A stretch of 64,000 nucleotides of DNA, taken from the NCBI GenBank assembly GCA_964470365.1, contig CAYYCO010000004.1, positions 15,359 through 79,358 of the forward strand, written 5' to 3'. The notes beneath the pieces are model-generated. The model ran no database searches. It was not told the DNA's origin and saw only the letters and a list, made by a program, of their open reading frames with translations. Numbering within the stretch: position 1 is the first letter of the stretch; every line of letters begins with the position of its first letter. Source of the stretch: an uncultured Anaeromyxobacteraceae bacterium. Lineage in GTDB: Bacteria > Myxococcota_A > UBA9042 > DTJE01. The position numbers were made by a program, and so were the translations under genes. Shown here one piece after another: positions 18,007-29,441 of the stretch.

Positions 18007-19770
18007 ATGGAAGGCGTACGTACACACAATTGCGGCGAGTTACGGGCGAAGGATGCCGGCGCGGCGGTCATGATGCAGGGCTGGGCGGCCAGCGTCAGGG
18101 ACCACGGGGGATGCGCGTTCATCAACCTGCGTGACCGGTTCGGGACGACGCAGGTCAAATTTGACCAGGCCACGGCCCCGGCGGCGTTCGCGACAGCGGT
18201 CGGCGTCAAGGCGGAATCGGTTATCCAGGTGCGCGGTGTGGTGGTCAGCCGCGGCGCCAACGCCAACGCGAAGATCCCGACCGGCGAAATCGAAGTCGAT
18301 GCGGATTCGATCGAGATTCTAAGCGTGTCGAAGCCGCTGCCATTCCAGATCGCGGACGATGTGGACGCCCAGGAAGTGACGCGCCTGAAGTACCGTTACC
18401 TGGACCTGCGCCGCGGCCCGCTGAATTCGGGGATCGTGATGCGTTCCAGGGTGTGCAAGCTGATCCGCGACTTCCTGCAGACCCAGGATTTCCTGGAAAT
18501 CGAAACGCCGATCCTGATGAAAAGCACGCCGGAAGGCGCCCGCGACTTCCTGGTCCCGTCCCGCGTGCATCCCGGCCAGTTCTACGCGCTGCCGCAGTCG
18601 CCCCAGACGTTCAAGCAGTTGCTGATGGTTTCCGGGTTCGACCGGTACTATCAGATCGCGCGCTGCTTCCGCGACGAGGACCTGCGCGCCGATCGCCAGC
18701 CGGAATTCACCCAGATCGACATGGAAATTTCGTTCGCGATCCCCGAACTGATTTACGAAATCATCGAGGGTATGCTGAAACACGTCTGGAAGAATGCGCT
18801 GGGCATCGACATCCAGACCCCGTTCCGCCGCATGCCTTACAGTCAGGCCATGGAACAGTACGGTTCGGACAAACCGGACCTGCGGTTCGGCATGGAAATG
18901 GTCACCATCACGGATCTGGTCGCCAATTCCGGGTTCAAGGTGTTCACGGACGTGGCGGCTGCGGGCGGCGTGGTCACGGCCATCACGGTCCCGAACGCGG
19001 AATCGTGGTCCCGCAAGGACATCGATGGACTGACCCAGGTCGCGACCGACAACGGCGCGAAGGGTCTGGCGTGGTTCAAGCTGGCCGCGGACGGCTGGCA
19101 GGGCTCGGCCGCCAAATTCCTGACCGACGACGACAAGGCGGCGATCGCCGGGGCGCTCGGCGCGGCCGTGGGCGACATGATCCTGGTCGTGGCGGACACC
19201 CGTCCGGCCAAGGCGCGGCAGGCGATGGGCGCGGTCCGCCTGAAGGTCGGCGACAGGATGGGCCTGCGCGACCCGAAGAAGATGGCGTTCCTGTGGGTCA
19301 CGGAATTCCCGATGTTCGAATGGGATGACGAATCGCAGCGCCCGACCGCGACGCACCACCCGTTCACGGCGCCGGTGCCCGAAGACCTGCCGATACTGGA
19401 AAGCGACCCGCTGAAGGTGCGCGCGCGCGCCTATGACGTGGTCCTGAACGGCACCGAACTTGGCGGCGGTTCGATTCGAATCCATTCGTCGGAAGTGCAG
19501 AAACGTGTGTTCAAGGCGCTGCGGATTTCAGATGAATCGGCCCGCGTGAAGTTCGGGTTCCTGCTGGACGCATTCGAATACGGCCCGCCCCCGCACGGCG
19601 GCATCGCGCTGGGCCTGGACCGCATGATCATGCTGATGGTCGGCGCCCCGTCGATCCGCGACGTGATCGCCTTCCCCAAAACCACCAGCGCGTCCGACCT
19701 GATGACCGACTCCCCGTCCGACGTGGACGAGGACCAGTTGAAAGACCTGCACATCGCCGTCAGGAAGTGA
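18007..19770 (+). CDS. aspS: Aspartate--tRNA ligase
   Basis: [61 protein letters not shown]. Confidence 0.97.
   Translation: MEGVRTHNCGELRAKDAGAAVMMQGWAASVRDHGGCAFINLRDRFGTTQVKFDQATAPAAFATAVGVKAESVIQVRGVVVSRGANANAKIPTGEIEVDADSIEILSVSKPLPFQIADDVDAQEVTRLKYRYLDLRRGPLNSGIVMRSRVCKLIRDFLQTQDFLEIETPILMKSTPEGARDFLVPSRVHPGQFYALPQSPQTFKQLLMVSGFDRYYQIARCFRDEDLRADRQPEFTQIDMEISFAIPELIYEIIEGMLKHVWKNALGIDIQTPFRRMPYSQAMEQYGSDKPDLRFGMEMVTITDLVANSGFKVFTDVAAAGGVVTAITVPNAESWSRKDIDGLTQVATDNGAKGLAWFKLAADGWQGSAAKFLTDDDKAAIAGALGAAVGDMILVVADTRPAKARQAMGAVRLKVGDRMGLRDPKKMAFLWVTEFPMFEWDDESQRPTATHHPFTAPVPEDLPILESDPLKVRARAYDVVLNGTELGGGSIRIHSSEVQKRVFKALRISDESARVKFGFLLDAFEYGPPPHGGIALGLDRMIMLMVGAPSIRDVIAFPKTTSASDLMTDSPSDVDEDQLKDLHIAVRK
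19577..19770 (+). repeat. Left copy of ~194 bp imperfect direct repeat (aspS 3' end)
   Basis: Aligns ungapped with 24003-24196 (offset 4426). Confidence 0.95.
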
Positions 19771-19824
19771 CGGTGGGGGTCGGTTCCGGGTTAACCAGAT
19801 CTTCGAAATCCCAGGAAGTTCAGT

Positions 19825-20769
19825 TCAGTTGATATCGATGGGGATCACGTAGGCCTCAGGTGTGATGTCCGTTGCGATGTTCATCAATACGGTGCCGTTG
19901 GTGCAACCGGCCCCGGGGGCAATTTGCAGGCTGATTATGACAGGAATAAATTGCGCCGGCCCCAGCGTGTGCGGAAGGTAGGACCCGCTGTTCTGGGGAA
20001 ATTCCGCGCTGACCGGGCAGGTATTCATGCGACAGTCTGTGCCCAGATAGCCGGAACAGTCGAGCCAGGCGTCGGAAATCACGAATGGAACCTGACCGCT
20101 GTTCCTGATGGTCAGCGTGGCAAGAAATTCGTCCTGGATACTGTCGAATTGGAAGCGGACCTCTGCAGGTATGGATTCCATCCATGGAATGTCGGCGCCC
20201 CCTGTGACGGCTAGCGGGGCCAACTGGGTGCGGTCAGCACTGATCTGGATCGCGCCCAGGTCACGGATCGCTGAATCCTCACCGGTTGCTTTCCATGAAA
20301 ACTCGAGGCTCAGTTGACCTCCAACGTCCAGCGTACTTTCCCCAAGCGGACTCACCGACAGGCCCTGATCCCACCCGCCCAGCTTCTGAGCGGTCACAAC
20401 GATGGCGTGTCCTGATATGTTGACTATATCGACTGAAGAAGTCGCTGTCAGTCCAGAACGAACCCATCCGAAGTCCACGCCTGCCGGGGAGACCTCGATC
20501 TGAGGCCCTTCGGTCAGTTCGTCAGTCGAGGTGTCCGATGGAATAACGGAGTCGGACTCTGCCGCGTCATGTGCATCCATACAGGCATCGCCACCCCCAT
20601 CCACGTGGCACTCGACTGTGGCATCGGCCACGCAGTCGTGTCCCGCTGTTGAGCCCGCGCCGCATCCCGACATCAAGCCTACCAGCAAAATGTTCAAGAA
20701 GGCATTCCAGCCGGTTACATCAATTGGACGTCCAGAAGGAAATGCAGACTGTCCAGTCAGTATTCGCAT
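19825..20769 (-). CDS. Lipoprotein with two Ig-like (ASH/choice-of-anchor-D-like) domains
   Basis: Lipobox LMSGC, acidic linker, IEVSPAGVDFG..DIVN and IPAEVRF..LTIRNSG Ig-like signatures. Start uncertain. Confidence 0.55.
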   Translation of the reverse strand: MRILTGQSAFPSGRPIDVTGWNAFLNILLVGLMSGCGAGSTAGHDCVADATVECHVDGGGDACMDAHDAAESDSVIPSDTSTDELTEGPQIEVSPAGVDFGWVRSGLTATSSVDIVNISGHAIVVTAQKLGGWDQGLSVSPLGESTLDVGGQLSLEFSWKATGEDSAIRDLGAIQISADRTQLAPLAVTGGADIPWMESIPAEVRFQFDSIQDEFLATLTIRNSGQVPFVISDAWLDCSGYLGTDCRMNTCPVSAEFPQNSGSYLPHTLGPAQFIPVIISLQIAPGAGCTNGTVLMNIATDITPEAYVIPIDIN

Positions 20770-23700
20770 ATCTTGTTTGCCTCGCCAAGACCGATGTCAA
20801 TCGCCCTGAACCCAAGCCAATGCGAGCACACAGGATGTGACCAGATTTGCAGCTCGGCAATTTCTCCGTCGATGGTTTGCTGGTGGGTTGAATCGGAGCC
20901 AATGGTTACGGAACCGGGATTACTTGCCGGCTGGACGCCATATGCGACGTCAATGATTTCCCATTCATCCGCGTCCGCCCCGCCCGTTTCTGATATTAGC
21001 AAGGCCGAATAGTAAGTTGAGTGAAGGACAAATACGAGGCTATACCACACACCCGCGAGAATCTGGTAGGTTCCGACCCCACCGATCTCCGCCCCCCCAG
21101 GAACCCATGCCACCAGGTTGGCCGTCGACTGACCCGATGGAACAACTGCAACGTTGTAGTGCCCCGAACCGACCAGGGACACCGTCGACGGACTGATTGA
21201 ATCGAGCTTGAAACGCATCATTATTGAGAAACCGCGGTAAGTGTACGTCCCTGACACACCTAAACCGGTAGCCGAAATTTGACTGCTCGCCGGAATTGCG
21301 AAAAATTGCCCAGAACCGGGCCCACCGAAAGTCAGGGAGTAGCCAGGATCATCTGGCGAACTGCCGGGAGGCGGATTCGAAGGCCCCGTGATCCCGTAGG
21401 ATCCGGATGACCCGCTTCCAAAGCCAGACCCATCAATCGGGCCAGCGCTCGAAAAGGAACTTCCGTAGGCTAAGAATGCGTTGGTGCTTGGCGGGACTGT
21501 ATGGCATGCCGACTTCCCATCGCTGAAGATGTCTTTCCATTCATCAGTATCCTCCAGTACGCTATAATAACCGTTCCAGTTGAAGTCGTACGCATAAGGT
21601 TCATCAGGGCTGGCCGGGGTGTCGGGATCTGCATCGAAATCGATGGAACATACCCCCCCACCGCATTCAGGACTTGAGAACTGGTCCAGAAGCGCCCACC
21701 GTCCCCAGGCGCACCACCAATTTGTCGAGAGAGTTTCAGAATGGCCGGTCTCGAAGATTTCGGCTTCATCAAGTGGCGGTTCGCCACCGCGGCTGAATCG
21801 CGCGAAGTAAGAATTTGATTCGGCTGGCGAACCACAGTTGATGGCGCATTCGCGAATCATTGAGGTGCAGCGGCCCTCGACACATGCGCCATAACTGCAG
21901 TCGTCATCGAGGTGGCAGGTCGGGCCACATATGCCGGGTTCACAATCTTGATCAGAACTGCAGGTCGAACCGAATGTAGAAGGATAGCCGGTTTTCCGTG
22001 CCATCAGGCCCGAAGTCCCGTAGAAGTAGTTGCTAATCGAGACTCTATTGGGAATGTCGGTGTCGAGAGAAACTCCAAGACAATGTCCAATCTCATGGGA
22101 GGCTGACTCGGCTGAGTAGTAGGCATTTGCTGTTTCAGACATGAGCGGCCGGGTTGACGGGTACACCGATAACTCGTACACGTTTTCGCCACGGTCATAG
22201 AAGTGATCGGAAAACAGGAACTGAAATATTTTCGAATACCTTCTGGCTGAATAGAAGTACTTGTTGAAGAAGGCGCTTGCTGCATGAACCGTATATCTTT
22301 GGTAAAGCAACTCGCCCGGGATTGGGGAGCTCGTAAATACATGGAGTTTTGTATGATATTCAAGACTGGAATCATTCGGGCAGGCGCCAGAAGAAATGAG
22401 GGCTTCAGATTGTCTGCATTCCAATGGTTCCAACGCGAAAGTGTAGTTGAGATAAGCTATTGCAAGCTCACCGAGCGTGTGTTCGTGGACGGTTCCTGAA
22501 ATGTATCCATAAGGGTCCGATGTCCCTGCAGCCTGAACGTAGATGTCATACACCGTGGGGTCGGGATTGTCCATCGATGAAAGGGGGAGCTTCTGACAAT
22601 AGGAACATGTTGAACTCATCGTCGCATCGGAGCATGTTCCAGCGCTCCATAGTGGCGAAACAGGGGTCTTCTGACATGACTTCTGCATACCGTAGACTTC
22701 GGCGAAGTCTGAAGCACCGTCCGAGTCGCTGTCTTGCGGTACAAAGTGTGCATAGGCCGCAAACTTTCTGCCGTAGGTTGTTGAACAATTTGAAGATGGT
22801 CCGCTTGAATCGTCACATGTTCCGAGTACGCTCTCGATTTCCCTCGACAGGCCATCGCCGTCACAGTCGGAATACAGCAATGTTGAAGGACAAACGGCAG
22901 TTCCCCAGCCCGATTTTCTAACATGGAACAACCGAGCGTTCATGACGGCGTCAGCGACGTCGGCCCCGACAACTACCGAGGCGGCACTGGCAGTCCATGG
23001 AACCGAGTAGACACGGCTTAGCGTGCCGATGTCATCATCATTAAATACGTATGAACCGCAACTTCCACTGGAGCAAGACAGCGTCGAATTGTTGAACACG
23101 TACAGAACGGAATCCGCGTATGATGATGGATTGAACGACAAGTCACTAGATTCCGTATTTTTTCCAACAAAAATCTGGTCCCCTGCCCTGACGGGTTTGG
23201 AAAGAAGCTCCCATCCGCCAAACGCGGTGTCATTGAGGGATAGAAGTGTAGTTCCATTTTCCTTCAAAGAAATGTCACAGGTGCCGTGATTGTTACTCAT
23301 ATACCCGTGTACGAGGAATGTCACGAACTTGTCCTCTGAAACTGAGAATGTCACCTTCGACGCGAAGCTATTGGCCGTCCAGTCATCGTTCACAGCAACA
23401 AGGGTTCCAGAAGATTCGTCGATGACCCTAATGACTGTGTCTGGAACATTTGACTCGCCAGTCAGGGCCTTGAGGTCGGACGTCTGGATTTCATAGGTTC
23501 TGCCCGCATATGCCGCGAAGAATCCCCGATATATCTTGCGAACTCCAGTATTCTTGCAGATTGGTTTGTAGGTGCCTCCTGAACAAGAGAATACCGTCGT
23601 AACACCCGATGTTTGACTATCGGGGAGCGCGTTATCCCCGGCCAGCTGTAGTTCGAGGGGTGTGTCAAGCCCTTTGGCCCTTAAAGATTCGGAGCCATAT

Positions 23701-23942
23701 TCATATGGGTCGGCATCCGTATCAGGTAACCATTCGCCTAATGCCTGCGAGTAAATGTCTGATATTGACTGGATCTCATTTTCGATCAATGACAAACACT
23801 TCGCATCATACTTGTGGCACGTCGATTTTATTAGGATGGTCTGTTCTGCCACGAGGTCTGGATCGCTGTAGGAAACCCCAGCTACTGAAGTGCTCCAAAT
23901 CATTACTGCGAGTACTGTCATGTCAGTCTTGCGAGATACCAT
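20757..23942 (-). CDS. Large secreted mosaic protein: PPC-like domains, DxDxDG Ca-binding repeats, HExxH zincin-like motif, Cys-rich module, LamG-like C-terminus
   Basis: 1061 aa ORF with [97 protein letters not shown]. Confidence 0.6.
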
Positions 23943-24002
23943 CGTGCGGCCTCCATGAAGTGCTTTTCGGAATTCATATTAGCGAGATCGGGGACTCAGC
24001 AC

Positions 24003-24196
24003 AATACGGTCCGCCTCCGCACGGCGGCATCGCGCTGGGACTGGACCGCATGATCATGCTTATGACCGGCGCGTCATCGATCCGCGACGTGATCGCCTTC
24101 CCCAAAACCACCAGCGCGTCCGACCTGATGACCGATTCCCCGTCCGACGTGGACGAAGACCAGCTCAAAGACCTGCACATCGGCATCAGGAAGTAG
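24003..24196 (+). pseudogene. aspS: Second, promoterless copy of the aspS 3' end (~64 codons plus stop)
   Basis: [63 protein letters not shown]. About 18 differences in 195 nt versus aspS. Confidence 0.92.
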
Positions 24197-24286
24197 GGCT
24201 GTCAGCGGCCTGGCCGCCGATTGACATCACAACGAAACTGTCATCGCCTAGCGAATCCCGGTGTGCCGGGGACGTTTCTGTATCTG

Positions 24287-24994
24287 TCAGCACCACGTCC
24301 GTTCTTCCACGGCGGGGACACATGACGGTGAAATCGAGTCGAATTCGATCGTACGGGGCAGGTAACAGCCTTCGGCGTCGTTTTCGTCGTCCCCGGACAG
24401 TTTTTCAAGCCGGATGCCTGTCAATTCGATTTCGTATCGGTTCAGTCCAGCTTCAACAATGACCATCGTGCCCGCGGTGACCTGGTATTCCACATTACCT
24501 GCCGGAGTCCGGACCCAGGCCGCCGTGTCCGAAACAACTGCCACATCGTAAGTGCTTCCGACATCGGGAAGACCATCGGTCCCGCATTCAAGCGACACGA
24601 AAAAGCCGGCGGACACCTTGTCGCAGCCCGCCGATTCCGACGGGATGTTCACGGACAGGTAAACAAGCCAGTTGTCCCGGAGCCATTCGCCATGCGCCGT
24701 ATCGGGATCAAAGCATGCGGGATCGCCGATTTCGCCGCCGTTGGTACTGCATGAGTACCGGAATTCTTCGAGGGTCAGGCCGTCCGAGACAGCGTTATCG
24801 CCGAACAGAACGGATGTTTCAATCGGGCCGCCTTCCGTGACGCACCGACCGAACTTTTCCACGACACCGCCGCAATCCGCGCACGCCGAAAGCGTTGCCA
24901 CCAGCATAATCAAGTCGGCGAGCGCCGACGCACGAAGATTTACCGAATGCCGCGCACGGGGCAATTCCCTGTCAGGATTCCGAGTGTCCAACAT
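24287..24994 (-). CDS. Hypothetical Cys-containing lipoprotein
   Basis: Hydrophobic stretch ending TLSAC, several Cys. GAGG SD before the ATG at 24994. Confidence 0.55.
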   Translation of the reverse strand: MLDTRNPDRELPRARHSVNLRASALADLIMLVATLSACADCGGVVEKFGRCVTEGGPIETSVLFGDNAVSDGLTLEEFRYSCSTNGGEIGDPACFDPDTAHGEWLRDNWLVYLSVNIPSESAGCDKVSAGFFVSLECGTDGLPDVGSTYDVAVVSDTAAWVRTPAGNVEYQVTAGTMVIVEAGLNRYEIELTGIRLEKLSGDDENDAEGCYLPRTIEFDSISPSCVPAVEERTWC

Positions 24995-25041
24995 GATGAC
25001 GCCTCTTTGATGCACAACCCGTGACGGCACAATCACCGTCA

Positions 25042-25353
25042 CTACGGAGCACACTCTTTGCCGCCAGTTCCTAAGTCACATTCCAACGGACGTTCAATCA
25101 CGAGCAGTTGCAGCTCCGCGCGAAGGACGTCGATGCATTCGCGCATCCGGCGATGCTGGTATGTTTCGGCCATAACGTCCCATTGTTCCGGCCCGATTGG
25201 CCCCAGGTCATCGACGTCGATCCGCATCGACCCGACGAAATTAGGCATGTCCGCCGGCGCCAACCGGCGGTAACAGATGATGTCCAGCATCGCACGAACC
25301 GGATCGGCCACCAGCGCGTGCTGGCCGGAAAATTCATGCCTGCCGACGGCCAT
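25042..25353 (-). pseudogene. C-terminal remnant of an AbiEi-like (type IV TA antitoxin) protein
   Basis: ALVADPVRAMLDIICYRR..SMRIDVDDL resembles the AbiEi C-terminal A(S/T)PE(K/R)ALxD..LRI pattern. No N-terminal wHTH and no AbiEii partner. Confidence 0.45.
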
Positions 25354-25445
25354 TGGGCCAGGTCCGAGTGTGCAGGAACATGCAAACCAGTTCCAGTGGA
25401 ATTGCACGGGTGGTATCCTGCCCCCGGCGGTCCGCGGGAGTCTTG

Positions 25446-26765
25446 ATGTTTCCCATACCAACGCCCCATGAAATTCGAAAAATATTCAGTGTTCCCGGCA
25501 GGTTTGAAGCGGCGACCTGTCGCGGGCGAAATCGCGGAATCGAGGTGTTCGGGGTTCTGAACACCGCCGGCAGGCCTGAAAACCTTGGAATTACCGTCTG
25601 CCACCCGGAACAGGCCCACGACGCGCCGTTTGTGACAGACGACTTTGCCATGGCATGGTCGCCCGCGCGCAGGGAAGCTTCGTCGGACATGGAACTTCAG
25701 AAAGACGTCCGGATGCTTCTTCCAGAGGTCGCGGAAAGAATCAAGGATGCCGCCTGGCTTCGGTATCTGGTCGACGCGCCCACGAATGCCGTGGCTTCGT
25801 GGTCGTTCACGCCTGCCGGACTGCCATGCGTCCTGACCGACGAAATGATCGCCGCGACACAAGGGCCGTCGGACCTCGATATCCGCGTCCAACTGCATTC
25901 GAACTGCGTCCAGAAATGCCTTTTCTGCCCGGTCACCAGTCCGGCATATTCCGAACAGGATCAGGCCGGCGACCTTTCCTTCATAACTGAGCTCGCCCGA
26001 CGCGTCGTCGTCCCGGCCAGGCGTAACGGACTGTTCACGACATTCAGGCTGGACTCCGACGATCTGTCATCGCACAGATACCTGCGTTCGATTATGGAAG
26101 TGGTTTACGAATCGGCCGGCTGTCCGCTTCATTTCGTCGTTCCGGCCAACCGGCTCGCATCGTCGGCCGTCGCCGGGGCGTTTGCCAGGCTGCCGGGGCT
26201 TGTCGGTCTGTCCACGACGATCTTGGGGGCCACGGCCGCAACTCACGACCTGGTGGCAGGTCGGCCCGGGGCGTTTGCCGAAACGGTCCGGGCCCTGAAA
26301 AACATCTCTTCACTGCCGTTGCAGGTTCAGGGGCACATGGTGCTGACTTCGGACGCGTGCGGTGAAATCGGGCCAACGGCAGCGATAATTGCCCACTTTG
26401 GTATCGACGTGCTGATTCAGTGCCTGATCGCCGACTGCTGGCGACATGAAGTCGTCCTGCCCCGGGTCACCCCGGACCTCGAAACCGTCCGACACGGCAT
26501 GGAAAAAGCTTGCGAACAGCTTCTGGACGCATCGGCAACAGTGAACGTGCGCCTGTCGGATTTCCCGGTGTGCGCAATTCCGTCCGCATTGCGTCACCTG
26601 GCGTGCGATGAGCATCCGCGGGAAAGCCTTTTCAAATACCGGCTTCCGGACGAGTGTGGCGCCTGTGTTCACCGGGAAAGCTGCATCGGACTTTCTTCTG
26701 TGTATCTGGATCGTTTCGGCGCCAGCGGTATTCGCCCGGAAGCGCGTCATACAAGCGGCCGTTAA
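25446..26765 (+). CDS. Radical SAM superfamily protein with C-terminal Cys cluster
   Basis: CVQKCLFC (CX3CX2C), ATHDLVAGRPGAFAETV, DFPVC, terminal CGACVHRESCIG..Y..FG. GGGAG SD. Confidence 0.7.
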   Translation: MFPIPTPHEIRKIFSVPGRFEAATCRGRNRGIEVFGVLNTAGRPENLGITVCHPEQAHDAPFVTDDFAMAWSPARREASSDMELQKDVRMLLPEVAERIKDAAWLRYLVDAPTNAVASWSFTPAGLPCVLTDEMIAATQGPSDLDIRVQLHSNCVQKCLFCPVTSPAYSEQDQAGDLSFITELARRVVVPARRNGLFTTFRLDSDDLSSHRYLRSIMEVVYESAGCPLHFVVPANRLASSAVAGAFARLPGLVGLSTTILGATAATHDLVAGRPGAFAETVRALKNISSLPLQVQGHMVLTSDACGEIGPTAAIIAHFGIDVLIQCLIADCWRHEVVLPRVTPDLETVRHGMEKACEQLLDASATVNVRLSDFPVCAIPSALRHLACDEHPRESLFKYRLPDECGACVHRESCIGLSSVYLDRFGASGIRPEARHTSGR

Positions 26766-26781
26766 TTCCATTCAGGAATCG

Positions 26782-27471
26782 TCACCGGCGCAGGGATCTG
26801 AAGAAAAGCAGGACTCGGGCGAGTTTGACCAGGGGAATCATCATCATGGGGGCGACGTGGTTGGACGGGCGGCACCTGATGCACGTTTCGATGTGGTCGG
26901 CGGCCTGTTCGACCGTCATCATCATGGGCTGGACCGATCCCTTGGCCATCTTGGTCCGGATGTACCCGAACCTGACGTTGGTCACGGCCAAGCCCCTGCG
27001 GCGGACCACCCGATCCAGCGACAGCATGTACCGCGTGAACCCGGCCTTTGACCCGGAATATGCGGGCGAATACGGGCTGTTCAGTTCGTCCGCCAGGCTG
27101 GATATGCCGATGAAGTGGCCGTTTTTGCGTTCAATCATACCGGGAATGACGGCGGCCGCGGTTTTCACCATCCCCATCAGGTTGACGTCGAACACGGTCA
27201 CGTCGCGTTCCAGGTGCGCCAGGTCGATTTTGTCGCCGATGCCCGCGCAGTAAATGCAGACGTCCGGTCGCATCGTTTCCGCGAGCCCGGCGATTTGGGC
27301 CGGGTATTCGGGCGCGGTCACGTCGCAGACCCGGTGGGTGTACGACGAATCGTCGATCGGCGACGGACTGCGCGAAATGCCCGCTGTTTCCCAGCCCGCG
27401 GCCAGCAGCCTGCGCGTGACCGCCAGCCCGATGCCATCCGAATTACCGATGAGTATTACCTTTTTTTCCAT
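26782..27471 (-). CDS. SDR-family oxidoreductase
   Basis: IGNSDGIGLA, YCAGI, ISSLA, YSGSK catalytic motif. Confidence 0.88.
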   Translation of the reverse strand: MEKKVILIGNSDGIGLAVTRRLLAAGWETAGISRSPSPIDDSSYTHRVCDVTAPEYPAQIAGLAETMRPDVCIYCAGIGDKIDLAHLERDVTVFDVNLMGMVKTAAAVIPGMIERKNGHFIGISSLADELNSPYSPAYSGSKAGFTRYMLSLDRVVRRRGLAVTNVRFGYIRTKMAKGSVQPMMMTVEQAADHIETCIRCRPSNHVAPMMMIPLVKLARVLLFFRSLRR

Positions 27472-27543
27472 GCCGTCACCTGTCCGCAAGCAAGGTCGGG
27501 GGCATCGGGAAAGTCCGTTGCGCCGTCGACCGGTCAATCCGGA

Positions 27544-29277
27544 TCAGAACGTCGCCCCGCGAATCATGTCGCAGTTCAGGAACGGTTTTGATGCCGCGGA
27601 CCACCACGGCGACGCGCAGGCGCCCAGCACCGCGCCCATGTAACGCCAGGCCAGGCCGGTGTCGCATAAATCGTACGACAGCGGGCCGTCGGGCACGTCC
27701 GCCGAAAACACGTCGTACAGGGTCTTCAGCTGGGCATCCGTGCGGTCACCGATCAGCGCCGCGTGCGCCTCGTCGATGCGGGCGTGCAGGAACCGTACGT
27801 CGCGCCACGTCAGCGGCAGGCCGGAGTTGCCGGACATCAGGACCAGTTCGCCCAGGTCCGAGTAGTGCGGATCCGCGGGCGGGGTCAGGCCTTCCAGTTC
27901 ATCCAGGCGTTTGTCCACGCGCCATGCCAGTCCCGCCAGCAGTTCGTTGGCGACATCGTCGCGGCCCGCCAGCCACGCGTGCATGATGGCGGATTCATGG
28001 AAAGAACGCTGGATCTGGTGGAAGTCGTTTTTCAGGGCGTCTTCCTCGCCGAACAGTTCCGGATTGGTGTCATTGTGGATGCCGTCGCCGCAGTTCAGGT
28101 CGCCCGGGTCGCCCCCGTGGAACAGGCGCAGCGTGGTGGCGGCCTCGCATTCGATGTTCCCCAGATCCAGCCACAGGAAGGCCAGGTCCTCGTCCGGGTA
28201 GTAAATTGTGCCGTCCTTGTCCACGGTGGCAATTTTCCAGCCGTCCGCGTCGACCTGCGCGGCCCATGCGCGGTAAATTTCCATTGCTTCCGAGATGTCT
28301 TCCCGCAGCCCGTCCATTTCCGGGTCGGTTTCGTCGTTCATGGGCGGGCACGCGGCCAGCGAAGCCAGCGCAATCATCATGTGGCCGATGTCGTCCTTCG
28401 AACGTTTGTTTTTTGCGTAAATGTCGCCCCAGTAAGGGTTGTCGGGGACGTGGACGTATTCGCACGCGCCGTTGTCCATGCCCGGCCAGTTCAGCGAATA
28501 GTCGATCGAGTATTCATGCCCGTCCTGCGCGTAATCAATCAGGACGCCGCCCGTGTCGGCAGTGGCGGGCCTGGGGTATGACGCGCGCGACAGGACCTGC
28601 GTGTTTTCCCATTCCGGGAAGGTCGGGCTGCGGAAGGTCATCGCCCAGGAATTGAAACCGCGGACAATGCGGCGCACCAGTCCGAAGTCGCGGGCCCGGC
28701 CGTCCAGCGCCGCCGCGTAGCACGCACCGACCAGCATCGGGCCGGTCCGCATGCCGTTGTTGTCTGCGCCGTCGGGCGAATGCGTGAAAGTCACCCTGCC
28801 GTCCAGTTTGGACATTGTGATCCCGGACCACCAGGTGCCGTACCAGTAAGGGCCATCGCCCCCTTCGGGCGGGCGTGGCAGGCCGTGAATGCGTTCGTCG
28901 AGCACGTCGAAGTACCGCGTTTTCTGCAGGATGTCGATGTACACCGCCGTCACGCGGTCGATTTCTTCCTGGGTGACCGGTTCGCCGCGGTCCGGCCGCA
29001 CGTACGTTTCGGGCCCGGTGTCGCCGGGAATGTCGGTGTTGATGGTGTCTTCGCCGGGGATGTCAACGCCCGAGTCCGCCACGGCGTCGTCGATCGTGTC
29101 CGATGCGTCCCGTCCGGCGTCAACCGGCGCCCCGTCGTCCGCGATGACGGTGTCTTCAATCGCGTCCGGAACGCCGTTATCGGCGACCGCAAGATCGTCG
29201 CCGGGCTGGCCGCCGCCGCAGCCGGCCGGGGCCAGCAGAATCAGGGAAGCCGCGAATATCCAGTATTTCTGACGCAT
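27544..29277 (-). CDS. Hypothetical lipoprotein (~577 aa) with acidic N-terminal linker
   Basis: Lipobox LAPAGC followed by Asp-rich spacer. Long open frame with GC3-biased codons. Confidence 0.65.
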   Translation of the reverse strand: MRQKYWIFAASLILLAPAGCGGGQPGDDLAVADNGVPDAIEDTVIADDGAPVDAGRDASDTIDDAVADSGVDIPGEDTINTDIPGDTGPETYVRPDRGEPVTQEEIDRVTAVYIDILQKTRYFDVLDERIHGLPRPPEGGDGPYWYGTWWSGITMSKLDGRVTFTHSPDGADNNGMRTGPMLVGACYAAALDGRARDFGLVRRIVRGFNSWAMTFRSPTFPEWENTQVLSRASYPRPATADTGGVLIDYAQDGHEYSIDYSLNWPGMDNGACEYVHVPDNPYWGDIYAKNKRSKDDIGHMMIALASLAACPPMNDETDPEMDGLREDISEAMEIYRAWAAQVDADGWKIATVDKDGTIYYPDEDLAFLWLDLGNIECEAATTLRLFHGGDPGDLNCGDGIHNDTNPELFGEEDALKNDFHQIQRSFHESAIMHAWLAGRDDVANELLAGLAWRVDKRLDELEGLTPPADPHYSDLGELVLMSGNSGLPLTWRDVRFLHARIDEAHAALIGDRTDAQLKTLYDVFSADVPDGPLSYDLCDTGLAWRYMGAVLGACASPWWSAASKPFLNCDMIRGATF

Positions 29278-29441
29278 GAGGGGACTCCATCCAGGCAATT
29301 TCAGCGAAAGGTCCGACCATCGGAACACGGGGCAATCTTAATATGAATCCCTGTTTCCCGCGCCTGCGGATTTCGCGCCGCCCTTGACTGATTCGGTGTC
29401 CGGACGGAACATCTGCACCGGAATTCATCCGGGGTGTCCCG

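What the first reader, a model, noticed from the sequence alone, without database searches (positions are those of the whole stretch)
19577..24196. Integrase-free island bracketed by two aspS 3' ends that both look shaped by purifying selection
Seen in sequence: aspS codons from 19576 recur at 24002-24196 without gaps, with 18 differences in 195 nt by my count. Nine changed codons are synonymous (including TGA/TAG), four are amino-acid changes (V>T, P>S, A>G, V>I), and one is at the junction (E>Q). The 4.2 kb between them is AT-richer and holds two opposite-strand surface-protein genes. Inference: a decaying duplicate would not be so biased to synonymous changes, so the two ends are probably alleles from related genomes. 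Incoming DNA may have used the aspS tail as a homology anchor or att-like site and replaced the end of an essential gene. A weak TTGTGC-N17-TAATAT promoter for the island gene overlaps the junction (23976-24004). This could be a recombination-driven cassette-swapping hotspot for surface proteins.
Basis: partly seen in the sequence, partly recalled or inferred. Interest (0 to 1): 0.7.

Follow-up and report, generated by a model that had tools for sequence, protein, structure and literature searches.

The report
Gene-tail-replacing mini-island in aspS
A 4.2-kb foreign two-gene block sits inside the end of the essential aspartyl-tRNA synthetase gene, having brought its own copy of the gene's last 64 codons and pushed the original end aside; this pattern is known from prophages such as e14 in E. 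coli, but here no integrase is present.

Summary
aspS codons 524-587 (19576-19770) recur at 24002-24196 without gaps, with 18/195 differences and a strong synonymous bias (pN/pS 0.2, p=0.002). It is not a misassembly: independent wastewater runs carry both junctions with no mismatches.

The displaced copy B is the old native end. Its synonymous distance to relatives continues that of the gene body, and its 3' flank matches the aspS flank of relatives. Copy A is foreign from its first bases. The geometry is therefore a single-point insertion of 4,426 bp between 19576 and 19577, and the inserted DNA begins with its own aspS tail. Only 7 nt (AATACGG) are identical at the exchange edge.

This is the architecture of e14 at icd/icdC in E. 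coli (12/165 differences, pN/pS 0.05). The differences are that no integrase lies in the island or the 64-kb window, and the cargo is one secreted-protein operon with minimal flanks.

Close relatives carry a different gene set directly after the aspS stop. A second, independent displaced aspS tail, starting 9 nt away, occurs in 30 or more metagenome contigs beside an IS91-family element.

Verdict: a real 3'-end-replacement scar at a variable hotspot. The enzyme is unresolved. It is a new member of a known kind and of moderate interest.

The parts
18007..19770 (+). Intact aspS (aspartate-tRNA ligase, 587 aa). The body up to 19576 is native. The last 64 codons are the incoming copy A.
   Evidence: Pfam tRNA-synt_2, GAD and OB domains. 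89-90+% identical to the AspRS of Myxococcota MAGs.
19577..19770 (+). Repeat copy A: the foreign replacement 3' end that now completes aspS.
   Evidence: Third-position distance to L090 is 1/25 in 19577-19650 against 19/75 in the body just upstream (p=0.021). Its A-specific states at 19731, 19738 and 19740 recur in an unrelated IS91-linked fragment, L097.
19577..19583 (+). AATACGG, a 7-nt block identical in both copies (also 24003-24009) at the 5' edge of the repeat. It is the inferred exchange point.
   Evidence: 19576 differs (G/C) and 19584 differs (C/T). The step in divergence falls here.
19651..19709 (+). 59-nt block identical in copies A and B (also 24077-24135). It carries two states (19677 C, 19683 C) seen in no relative except L097.
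   Evidence: (p=0.02 for a run this long). The likely cause is gene conversion between the copies. It is also a substrate for RecA-mediated loss of the island.
19771..24001 (.). Inserted cargo segment (4,231 nt). The whole insert, including copy A, is 4,426 nt.
   Evidence: GC 0.532 against about 0.63 in the flanks. Absent from all relatives.
19825..20769 (-). Cargo gene 2: 314-aa probable secreted protein or lipoprotein with an ASH / choice-of-anchor-D-like beta-sandwich.
   Evidence: Pfam ASH 1.6e-5 and NCBIfam choice_anch_D 5.5e-7, both below the curated cut-offs. LMSGC lipobox-like motif. Homologous to the gene that follows the cargo-1 homologue in L088 (E 9e-32).
20757..23942 (-). Cargo gene 1: 1061-aa cysteine-rich secreted protein with an HEIGH zinc-protease motif (residue 616) and a C-terminal LamG-like domain.
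   Evidence: Pfam Laminin_G_3 2.7e-6. Only 3 homologues among 5.8 billion proteins.
23943..24001 (-). 59-nt leader or promoter region of the cargo operon, which abuts copy B. Its last 11 nt partly resemble the aspS sequence left of the exchange point (GGAC.CA, 6 of 7 matches).
   Evidence: alignment. No consensus promoter was called here.
24002..24196 (+). Repeat copy B: the displaced native aspS 3' end (homology starts at 24003), still in frame with a TAG stop. The source assembly calls it as a 78-aa ORF.
   Evidence: Third-position distance to L090 is 7/25, equal to that of the body. pN/pS to intact relatives is 0.05-0.09.
24197..24221 (+). Native post-stop flank of copy B, homologous to the aspS/AbiEii junction of relatives.
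   Evidence: BLAST of L098 271-489 against window 24003-24221 (89.5%), and L098/L093 flank homology.
24256..24271 (+). Terminator-like hairpin, possibly the original aspS terminator.
   Evidence: consensus scan only.
24287..25054 (-). Lineage-specific lipoprotein gene (LSAC lipobox) occupying the place of AbiEii in relative L093.
   Evidence: GC3 0.66. No Pfam or NCBIfam hit.
25107..25351 (-). Remnant of an AbiEi antitoxin gene, a relic of an L093-like aspS-AbiEii-AbiEi arrangement.
   Evidence: 91.4% identical to L093 12631-12875. L093 genes typed as AbiEii and AbiEi.

Best explanation
A 4,426-bp foreign DNA segment was inserted at one point of aspS, between 19576 and 19577 (codons 523/524). 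The segment begins with its own copy of the last 64 aspS codons, taken from a related Myxococcota lineage. It then carries a two-gene secreted-protein operon of lower GC content.

The incoming tail (copy A) now completes the essential gene. The native tail (copy B) was displaced 4.4 kb downstream and is still joined to its old 3' flank.

This is the geometry of a circular element that recombines reciprocally through an att-like site at the 5' edge of a gene-end mimic, as e14 and phage 21 do at icd. The most likely enzyme is a site-specific recombinase that acted in trans or whose gene has since been lost. What remains is a cargo-only island bracketed by att-like sites, comparable to a CIME.

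Shown: the repeat; the reality of both junctions; that B is native and A is foreign; the single exchange point; the absence of an integrase in 64 kb; and variable cargo at this site in relatives.

Inferred: the circular intermediate, the enzyme class, and loss or trans action of the integrase.
For: The repeat and its synonymous bias are. Both junctions are present with 0 mismatches in contigs of independent runs from several studies, and one contig (X5, 23846-24544) crosses the whole of copy B. Depth is equal over the gene body, island and downstream region.

The native gene reads as body plus B. Third-position distance to L090 is 19/75 in the body, 7/25 in B and 1/25 in A over 19577-19650 (p=0.021; against L093 p=0.037). 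B's first 25 post-stop nt match the aspS flank of relatives, and an AbiEi relic lies downstream.

Only 7 nt are identical at the exchange edge, and partial similarity continues to the left of it.

A-type tail DNA also occurs elsewhere in a mobile context, in L097 next to an IS91-family end.

A second displaced tail, derived from a different functional allele (pN/pS 0.07 against B), starts 9 nt away.

E. coli icd/icdC at e14 shows the same architecture and similar numbers: 12/165 differences, Sd 10, Nd 2 (PMC13626634).
Against: No integrase, excisionase or any pseudogene of one lies in the island, which is filled by the two cargo genes with 54- and 59-nt flanks. None was found among the major ORFs of the 64-kb window or within 10 kb of aspS in five related lineages.

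No integrase-bearing element with an aspS-tail mimic was found in the viral, phage or plasmid collections or by the one metagenome pattern scan.

No empty site or circle junction was seen.

No convincing inverted core-type sites flank AATACGG.

The step-change statistic rests on small counts (1/25 against 19/75).

The DNA left of the second displaced tail is unrelated to the DNA left of copy B.
Confidence: 0.48

Rival explanations
1. No dedicated recombinase was involved. Chromosomal DNA from a related strain, in which the cargo already sat behind aspS, was taken up. It was joined by housekeeping recombination in one of three ways: homology-facilitated illegitimate recombination, capture of the fragment at a double-strand break at 19576/19577, or a RecA single crossover of a circularised fragment. 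The displaced tail is the scar of one illegitimate joint at a core-gene-flanked HGT hotspot.
For: No integrase is present anywhere in view. The cargo is a bare operon. Five lineages carry five different contents directly after the aspS stop, with homology breaking within 0-60 nt of the stop and no mobile-element genes. Copy A's first 5 post-stop nt equal those of L093, as expected for a tail lifted from a real aspS locus. Synonymous divergence is lowered in the aspS tail across lineages. Precedents are the HFIR model for displaced 3' ends in T6SS and Rhs loci (PMC5361080) and hotspots that lack mobile elements and recombine at flanking core genes (PMC5635113). The palindrome TTCGAA spans the joint, and ACGCGT lies at the boundary of the second tail (seen in the sequence).
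Against: Linear HFIR predicts a donor tract extending upstream of the joint, but the 75 nt before 19577 are native-like (7/25) and carry a window-specific allele at 19572. A RecA crossover should fall inside the homology, most likely in the 59-nt identical block, which would make A-up native. The data point the other way (p about 0.02). Two independent tails starting 9 nt apart (p about 0.01) is unexpected for random illegitimate joints.
Confidence: 0.3
2. An IS91-family (HUH, rolling-circle) element mobilised the aspS tail together with neighbouring genes by one-ended transposition. The tail then served as portable homology, or as the cleavage site, for entry at aspS. This would be analogous to ISCR1 and the duplicated 3'-CS of complex class 1 integrons. 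The IS was later lost from the window lineage.
For: L097 has a 107-nt A-type aspS fragment abutting the transposase-proximal end of an IS91-family element; the adjoining ORF matches Zn_Tnp_IS91 at 6.6e-15. The homologous locus in other samples lacks both the fragment and the IS. The second displaced-tail family lies 220 nt from the same IS end, next to a gene with Zn_Tnp_IS91 and Y2_Tnp domains. The IS is highly multicopy in these communities, with depth 500-1400 against 19. One-ended transposition carries DNA beyond terIS, and the family's target/ter tetranucleotide GTTC (PMC13181058) sits at 19572-19575 in L090-type aspS, between the two boundaries.
Against: No IS91 end or transposase is present in the window (with up to 3 mismatches). 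The window's own copy reads ATTC, not GTTC. In the L098-type loci the IS end nearest the tail is the terIS side, not oriIS, which does not fit a simple insertion model. The orientations in L097 and L098 differ. The IS could simply have landed in dead DNA.
Confidence: 0.08
3. An in-situ tandem duplication of the aspS end was followed by decay of the downstream copy and by insertion of foreign genes between the copies.
For: Direct repeats in the same orientation.
Against: The copies differ at 9% of sites with pN/pS of 0.2. The displaced copy is even more conservative against intact relatives (0.05-0.09) and has no frameshift or stop. The two copies are each as far from one another as from other lineages. 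Relatives that diverged less than this lack any duplicate.
Confidence: 0.02
4. A chimeric assembly of two strains joined through the shared aspS tail.
For: The 59-nt identical block breaks k=31 contigs at 19680 and 24106.
Against: The island-to-B and A-to-island junctions are found with 0 mismatches in runs of several studies from 2020-2025. One contig runs from the island through all of B into the downstream DNA. Depth is even. A strain chimera cannot create the non-homologous joint at 24001/24002.
Confidence: 0.01

Closest known systems
e14 and phage 21 integration into icd of E. coli (icd / icdC pseudogene)
   Same: The element inserts inside the 3' end of a housekeeping protein gene and supplies a replacement end. 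The native end is left as a promoter-less fragment at the far side. The left edge of the repeat is sharp and the repeat runs to the stop codon. The copies differ mostly at synonymous sites: icd/icdC has 12/165 differences, Sd 10, Nd 2; here there are 18/195, Sd 9, Nd 6. Loss of the element would give a functional chimeric gene (PMC13626634).
   Different: e14 is a 15-kb prophage with intE and xisE 3.3 kb inside it. Here the insert is 4.4 kb, carries only a cargo operon, and no integrase is seen within 64 kb. The target is an aminoacyl-tRNA synthetase gene in uncultured Myxococcota. No excision was observed.
CIMEs (cis-mobilizable elements) at the 3' end of fda in Streptococcus thermophilus and S. 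salivarius (own knowledge; term used in PMC7563491)
   Same: An island bracketed by att sites that contain the 3' end of a housekeeping gene, with no integrase or transfer genes of its own.
   Different: CIMEs are recognised by att sites shared with known ICEs (ICESt1/ICESt3) that can mobilise them. No partner element is known here, and the repeats are 195 nt long and 9% diverged rather than short conserved att cores.
C-terminal displacement in Rhs, CDI and T6SS effector loci, attributed to homology-facilitated illegitimate recombination (PMC5361080)
   Same: A new 3' end plus linked genes arrive and displace the old 3' end downstream, where it persists as an orphan. No integrase is involved. 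The events are serial and lineage-specific.
   Different: Those loci are polymorphic toxins, where the variable 3' end is itself the selected payload. Here the 3' end is a conserved essential-gene tail, replaced like for like, and the payload is separate. The exchange point here coincides with the orphan's left end.
Integrase-free HGT hotspots between core genes (PMC5635113)
   Same: Rapid turnover of unrelated genes at one interval beside a conserved core gene in close relatives, without recognisable mobile elements.
   Different: Hotspot turnover by double homologous recombination leaves no duplicated gene end. This locus carries an explicit scar.
IS91/ISCR one-ended transposition with duplicated flanking homology (PMC13181058; the ISCR1 model is from own knowledge)
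   Same: In related contigs, aspS-tail fragments lie beyond the terIS-side end of an IS91-family element, like passenger DNA.
   Different: No IS91-family sequence is present in the window.

Membership tests
Integrase-mediated integrative element targeting the 3' end of a protein gene (e14 / phage 21 type) | The element is flanked by direct repeats made of the target gene's 3' end. The proximal copy completes the gene and the distal copy is a displaced fragment. | tested here: met
   Compared directly with icd/icdC.
Integrase-mediated integrative element targeting the 3' end of a protein gene (e14 / phage 21 type) | The element encodes a tyrosine or serine recombinase (usually with an excisionase). 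| tested here: not met
   No Pfam integrase, recombinase or transposase hit in the island or among the major ORFs of the 64-kb window.
Integrase-mediated integrative element targeting the 3' end of a protein gene (e14 / phage 21 type) | Exchange occurs at a short identical core at the 5' edge of the repeat, with everything distal in copy A coming from the element. | tested here: inconclusive
   A 7-nt identical AATACGG is flanked by differences. The divergence step falls at 19577 (p=0.02-0.04). No clear inverted core-type sites were found.
Integrase-mediated integrative element targeting the 3' end of a protein gene (e14 / phage 21 type) | Excision occurs: an empty site and a circular form can be detected. 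| tested here: inconclusive
   No joint skipping 4426 nt appears in the contigs of 8 runs. Only k=31 contigs were available, not raw reads.
CIME (att-flanked, integrase-less derivative of an integrative element) | Flanked by att-type repeats and lacking recombination and transfer modules. | tested here: met
CIME (att-flanked, integrase-less derivative of an integrative element) | Shares its att sites with a full element that can mobilise it. | tested here: inconclusive
   No integrase-bearing partner was found. A second displaced tail 9 nt away hints at other users of the site, but its left-hand partner is cut off by an IS.
Homology-facilitated illegitimate recombination scar | The donor tract extends through a homologous anchor upstream of the illegitimate joint. 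| tested here: not met
   The 75 nt upstream of 19577 are native-like (7/25 against L090, with a window-specific A at 19572), while copy A turns foreign at 19577. The counts are small.
IS91-family one-ended transposition unit | An IS91-family transposase with oriIS and terIS ends lies contiguous with the mobilised DNA. | tested here: not met
   Absent from the window. Present only in the related contigs L097 and L100.
Core-gene-flanked HGT hotspot | Different accessory genes occupy the same interval next to a conserved core gene in close relatives. | tested here: met
   The window, L081/L087, L090, L093 and L094 each carry different genes directly after aspS, with conserved synteny upstream.

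The most novel reading that the evidence does not exclude
The aspS codon 522-524 region of this Myxococcota clade is a dedicated docking point for integrase-less cassettes. Each cassette carries a mimic of the essential gene's tail and enters through a sequence-specific cut-and-join made by an enzyme encoded elsewhere, for example an HUH / IS91-family transposase acting at the GTTC/TTCGAA motif, or a host recombinase, as Xer serves IMEX elements. This would amount to a gene-tail-swapping cassette system that stacks displaced tails and shuttles secreted-protein and defence genes between related genomes.
Probability: 0.12. Interest if true: 0.75.

Novelty: new member of a known kind. Interest (0 to 1): 0.4.

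Why it matters
The locus is a clean natural record of how a gene block entered an essential gene without harming it. Both parental gene ends are preserved, so the exchange point can be read to within about 7 nt.

Many HGT hotspots lack any recognisable mobile element, and how they turn over is an open question (PMC5635113). If the insertion was made without an element-encoded integrase, this locus would show such a hotspot working by single-point insertion of tail-carrying DNA rather than by double homologous recombination.

In practical terms, the 78-aa 'tRNA-ligase-related' ORF called at copy B is a pseudogene fragment. The intact in-frame tail B and the 59-nt identical block mean the island can be lost by simple recombination without killing the cell.

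Tried and rejected
- **Genome-collection scan with AspRS:** the nearest hit was 70% identical, so it was useless for synteny. Relatives came from the protein search and contig look-ups instead.
- **Look-up of the window's own AspRS:** not on record.
- **Tail peptide against viral contigs, phage records and plasmids:** the hits were whole aspS genes of jumbo phages, host contamination or mislabelled chromosomes. The exception was L096, which led to the IS91-linked fragments.
- **Cargo protein against plasmids:** no match. Against PDB sequences and NCBIfam: nothing.
- **AlphaFold2 on a 4-sequence alignment:** mean pLDDT 32, so no fold search was run.
- **Short AspRS C-terminal ORFs on long contigs in other phyla:** P0240 and P0251 are frameshifted or low-coverage intact genes, not displaced tails. 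Generality beyond this clade is therefore not shown.
- **RNA runs for the island:** none identifiable, so expression and the junction promoter could not be tested.
- **Laying reads on L090:** Low-stringency laying on the window showed an aspS about 84% identical in the 2016 sludge runs, but not its downstream context.
- **Crossover inside the 59-nt identical block (Campbell integration by RecA):** considered because segment-wise SNP counts first hinted at it (note). Rejected after the third-position analysis.
- **Sliding third-position profile along aspS:** no single breakpoint upstream of the tail.
- **Similarity between the DNA left of copy B and the 220 nt left of the second displaced tail:** none.


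Full report
**1. The observation**

The window encodes a full-length aspartate-tRNA ligase at 18007-19770 (587 aa; tRNA-synt_2, GAD and OB domains). Its last 195 nt (19576-19770) recur at 24002-24196 with an offset of 4426 and no gaps.

There are 18 differences. Nine changed codons are synonymous, counting TGA/TAG. Four change the amino acid (V>T, P>S, A>G, V>I). The junction codon changes E>Q. Nei-Gojobori counting over the 63 clean codons gives Sd 9 over 46.2 sites and Nd 6 over 142.8 sites, pN/pS 0.22, Fisher p=0.002.

On the 3' side the homology stops at the stop codon. On the 5' side it stops at 19577.

The 4,231 nt between the copies have GC 0.532 against 0.63 and 0.62 in the flanks, and GC3 of 0.55-0.64 against 0.79-0.85 in core genes. 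They are filled by two overlapping minus-strand genes, with only 54 and 59 nt of non-coding flank.

The proposed TTGTGC-N17-TAATAT promoter matches 7 of 12 consensus positions and is not called. Promoter-like sites in the region are no more frequent than in shuffled sequence.

**2. It is not an artefact**

Contigs of independent wastewater and sludge runs from several studies (2020-2025) carry the A-to-island and island-to-B joints with zero mismatches. One contig (X5, 23846-24544) runs from the island through all of copy B into the downstream DNA. Depth is even, at about 8.5, over the gene body, island and downstream region.

k=31 contigs otherwise break at 19680 and 24106, inside a 59-nt block that is identical in both copies. 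No joint skipping 4426 nt (an empty site) was seen, but only contigs were available, not raw reads.

**3. The cargo**

The 1061-aa protein has a signal-like N-terminus, 33 cysteines, an HEIGH zinc-protease motif and a C-terminal LamG-like domain. The 314-aa protein has a lipobox-like LMSGC and a weak ASH / choice-of-anchor-D match.

The large protein has only three homologues among 5.8 billion proteins. In two of those contigs it is again followed by a gene. For L088 that gene is homologous to the 314-aa protein (E 9e-32), in unrelated contexts without aspS. The pair is therefore a transferable operon for secreted or surface proteins.

Its exact function is unknown. There was no PDB or NCBIfam hit and the AlphaFold model failed.

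**4. Relatives**

The organism is an uncultured Myxococcota bacterium; the name comes from the 89%-identical AspRS P0002. Upstream synteny (OEP, HSP20, LolA, ribosomal protein genes, RDD, aspS) is conserved in all relatives. The DNA directly after the aspS stop differs in every lineage:

| Lineage | Genes directly after aspS |
|---|---|
| L081-L087 | U32 fragment, then a metallo-beta-lactamase-fold gene |
| L090-L092 | ABC1 kinase, then a 443-aa gene, SDR and a 579-aa gene |
| L093 | AbiEii/AbiEi pair inserted exactly after the stop, then ABC1 |
| L094 | 564-aa gene, then a GAF kinase |
| Window | island, tail B, lipoprotein gene, a 245-nt AbiEi relic, then the 443-aa/SDR/594-aa block |

None of these relatives has a second aspS tail. 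Nor do 92 other aspS loci searched.

**5. Which tail is native**

Over the tail, A, B and the L090/L093 alleles are about equally distant from one another (92-93% identity). Every pairwise comparison is strongly synonymous-biased. B against intact relatives gives pN/pS of 0.05-0.09. B therefore evolved as part of a working gene until recently.

Two observations identify B as the old native end.
- Its first 25 post-stop nt are homologous to the aspS/AbiEii junction seen in relatives, and an AbiEi relic lies 900 nt further on.
- Third-codon-position distance to L090 is 19/75 in the aspS body just upstream (7/25 in the last 75 nt). It is 7/25 in B over 19577-19650, but only 1/25 in A over the same stretch (A against body p=0.021; against L093 p=0.037; B against body p=0.8).

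The body plus B therefore reads as one continuous gene. A is foreign from its first bases.

**6. Geometry**

The structure is a single-point insertion of 4,426 bp between 19576 and 19577, and the insert begins with its own aspS tail. The two copies share only 7 identical nt (AATACGG) at that edge before the first difference at 19584. Left of B there are a further 6 matches in 7 positions (GGAC.CA, including the window-specific A at 19572), followed by 4 mismatches.

A RecA crossover would be expected inside the homology, most likely in the 59-nt identical block, and would make the 5' part of A native. Linear homology-facilitated illegitimate recombination would leave a donor tract upstream of the joint. 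Neither fits, although the counts are small.

The 59-nt identical block (p=0.02 for a run this long) carries two states that no relative has. It is most simply explained by later gene conversion between the copies.

**7. Related finds**

Searching with the tail peptide and with a DNA pattern turned up further aspS tail pieces from this clade in places other than aspS.

(a) P0249 is a 70-aa ORF found on at least 20 contigs from many digester and sludge metagenomes (L098-L106). It is a complete displaced tail whose homology starts at the equivalent of 19568, 9 nt from B's start. It is 96% identical to the L090 allele, with 5-6 synonymous changes and one K>R. It has a TAG stop followed by the same native flank as B. 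It lies 220 nt from the transposase-proximal end of an IS91-family element, where the contigs break. Derivatives truncated at the equivalents of 19617 (L096) and 19748 (P0250, 10 contigs) also exist. B and this tail differ at 17/189 sites with pN/pS 0.07, so they were displaced from different functional alleles.

(b) L097 holds a 107-nt fragment of the A-type tail, with the three A-specific states and the two special states of the identical block. It abuts the same IS end directly. The homologous locus in other samples lacks both the fragment and the IS, and the IS is highly multicopy.

A-type tail DNA has therefore moved, and the region of codons 522-524 has been a recombination boundary at least twice (p about 0.01 under uniform placement). 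In L090-type aspS a GTTC, the IS91-family tetranucleotide (PMC13181058), lies at 19572-19575, and TTCGAA spans the joint. I could not turn these motifs into a model that fits all orientations.

**8. Mechanism**

The geometry matches an element that recombines reciprocally through an att-like point at the 5' edge of a gene-end mimic. I measured the textbook case directly. In E. coli K-12, icd and icdC at the two ends of e14 share 165 nt with 12 differences (Sd 10, Nd 2, pN/pS 0.05), a sharp left edge and an end near the stop codon (PMC13626634). These are the same features and nearly the same numbers.

The difference is that e14 carries intE and xisE. Here no recombinase is visible in the island, in the 64-kb window or near aspS in relatives, and no partner element was found in any collection I could scan.

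I therefore rank the explanations as follows:

| Explanation | Confidence |
|---|---|
| att-type insertion with the recombinase lost or acting in trans (a CIME-like remnant) | about 0.48 |
| Housekeeping recombination or break-capture of chromosomal DNA from a related strain | about 0.30 |
| IS91-family rolling-circle mobilisation | about 0.08 |
| In-situ duplication with decay | 0.02 |
| Misassembly | 0.01 |

The last two are effectively excluded.

**9. Novelty and interest**

Replacement of a gene's 3' end by an inserted element, orphaned 3' ends and integrase-free hotspots are all known (PMC13626634, PMC5361080, PMC5635113). I found no paper naming aspS as an attachment site.

This is a new example of a known kind. 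It is unusual in being cargo-only and in targeting an aminoacyl-tRNA synthetase gene. The recurrent, IS91-associated displaced tails in relatives leave some room for something less ordinary.

Interest is moderate, mainly because both parental ends survive, which makes the joint readable and the mechanism testable.

**10. Limits**

All comparative data are metagenome contigs. Raw reads were not available. The native/foreign assignment rests on 25-codon counts. The left-hand partners of the L098-type tails are unknown because the contigs end in the IS.

Noticed in passing
L098-L106 (tail ORF e.g. L098 252-464), L107-L111, L096 223-272: A second family of displaced aspS 3' ends (P0249 and P0250) occurs on at least 30 metagenome contigs. 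It starts at the equivalent of window 19568 and lies 220 nt from the terIS-side end of an IS91-family element. The DNA further downstream varies. Two derivatives are truncated at the equivalents of 19617 and 19748.
   Followed up: partly
L097 4654-4760 and 4761-5159: A 107-nt A-type aspS fragment (98% identical to window 19655-19761) sits between an FGE-sulfatase-like lipoprotein gene and an IS91-family transposase gene. The IS is present at 25-75 times the depth of its flank in 2016 activated-sludge runs that lack the window organism.
   Followed up: partly
window 25107-25351: A 245-nt relic of an AbiEi antitoxin gene, 91% identical to L093. The partner AbiEii position is occupied by an unrelated lipoprotein gene (24287-25054). 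The ABC1 kinase gene of relatives is missing.
   Followed up: partly
window 25353-26765, 26782-27537, 27544-29328: A conserved trio downstream of the variable site: a radical-SAM/SPASM-like protein (weak HxsC-type match), a short-chain dehydrogenase and a 594-aa lipoprotein. It could be a small peptide-maturation or modification module.
   Followed up: no
window 19501-19770 compared with L081/L090/L093: Synonymous (third-position) divergence between lineages drops in the last 90 or so codons of aspS (0.10-0.20 against 0.3-0.5 upstream). The cause could be recurrent inter-lineage exchange of the tail or a constraint at the nucleotide level.
   Followed up: partly
window 19573-19578 and the equivalent of 19568-19573 in L090-type aspS: The two displaced-tail boundaries coincide with 6-bp palindromes (TTCGAA, and ACGCGT in the L090-type) and with a GTTC tetranucleotide. 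This may be chance, or a clue to a sequence-specific cut.
   Followed up: no
window 19871 to 24150 (run X15): One contig in one run shows a joint skipping 4278 nt, with only 25 nt on its shorter side. It does not correspond to repeat-mediated excision (4426 nt) and is probably a spurious short match.
   Followed up: no
window 19498-19718 (run X1): A minor contig at 3.6x depth differs at 22 sites from copy A, showing that a related strain or species with another aspS allele co-occurs in the same sample.
   Followed up: no
L081 15904-17245 compared with L082 15904-16217: Two assemblies with an identical AspRS differ by an indel of about 1 kb between the 364-aa CAP-like gene and the HMGL-like gene. 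L087 has an extra YgbA_NO gene. This is further small-scale variability downstream of aspS.
   Followed up: no
window 23960-24196: The source annotation calls a 78-aa CDS (GTG start, Pfam tRNA-synt_2) that is simply copy B with 14 junction-derived codons in front. It should be treated as a pseudogene fragment.
   Followed up: yes
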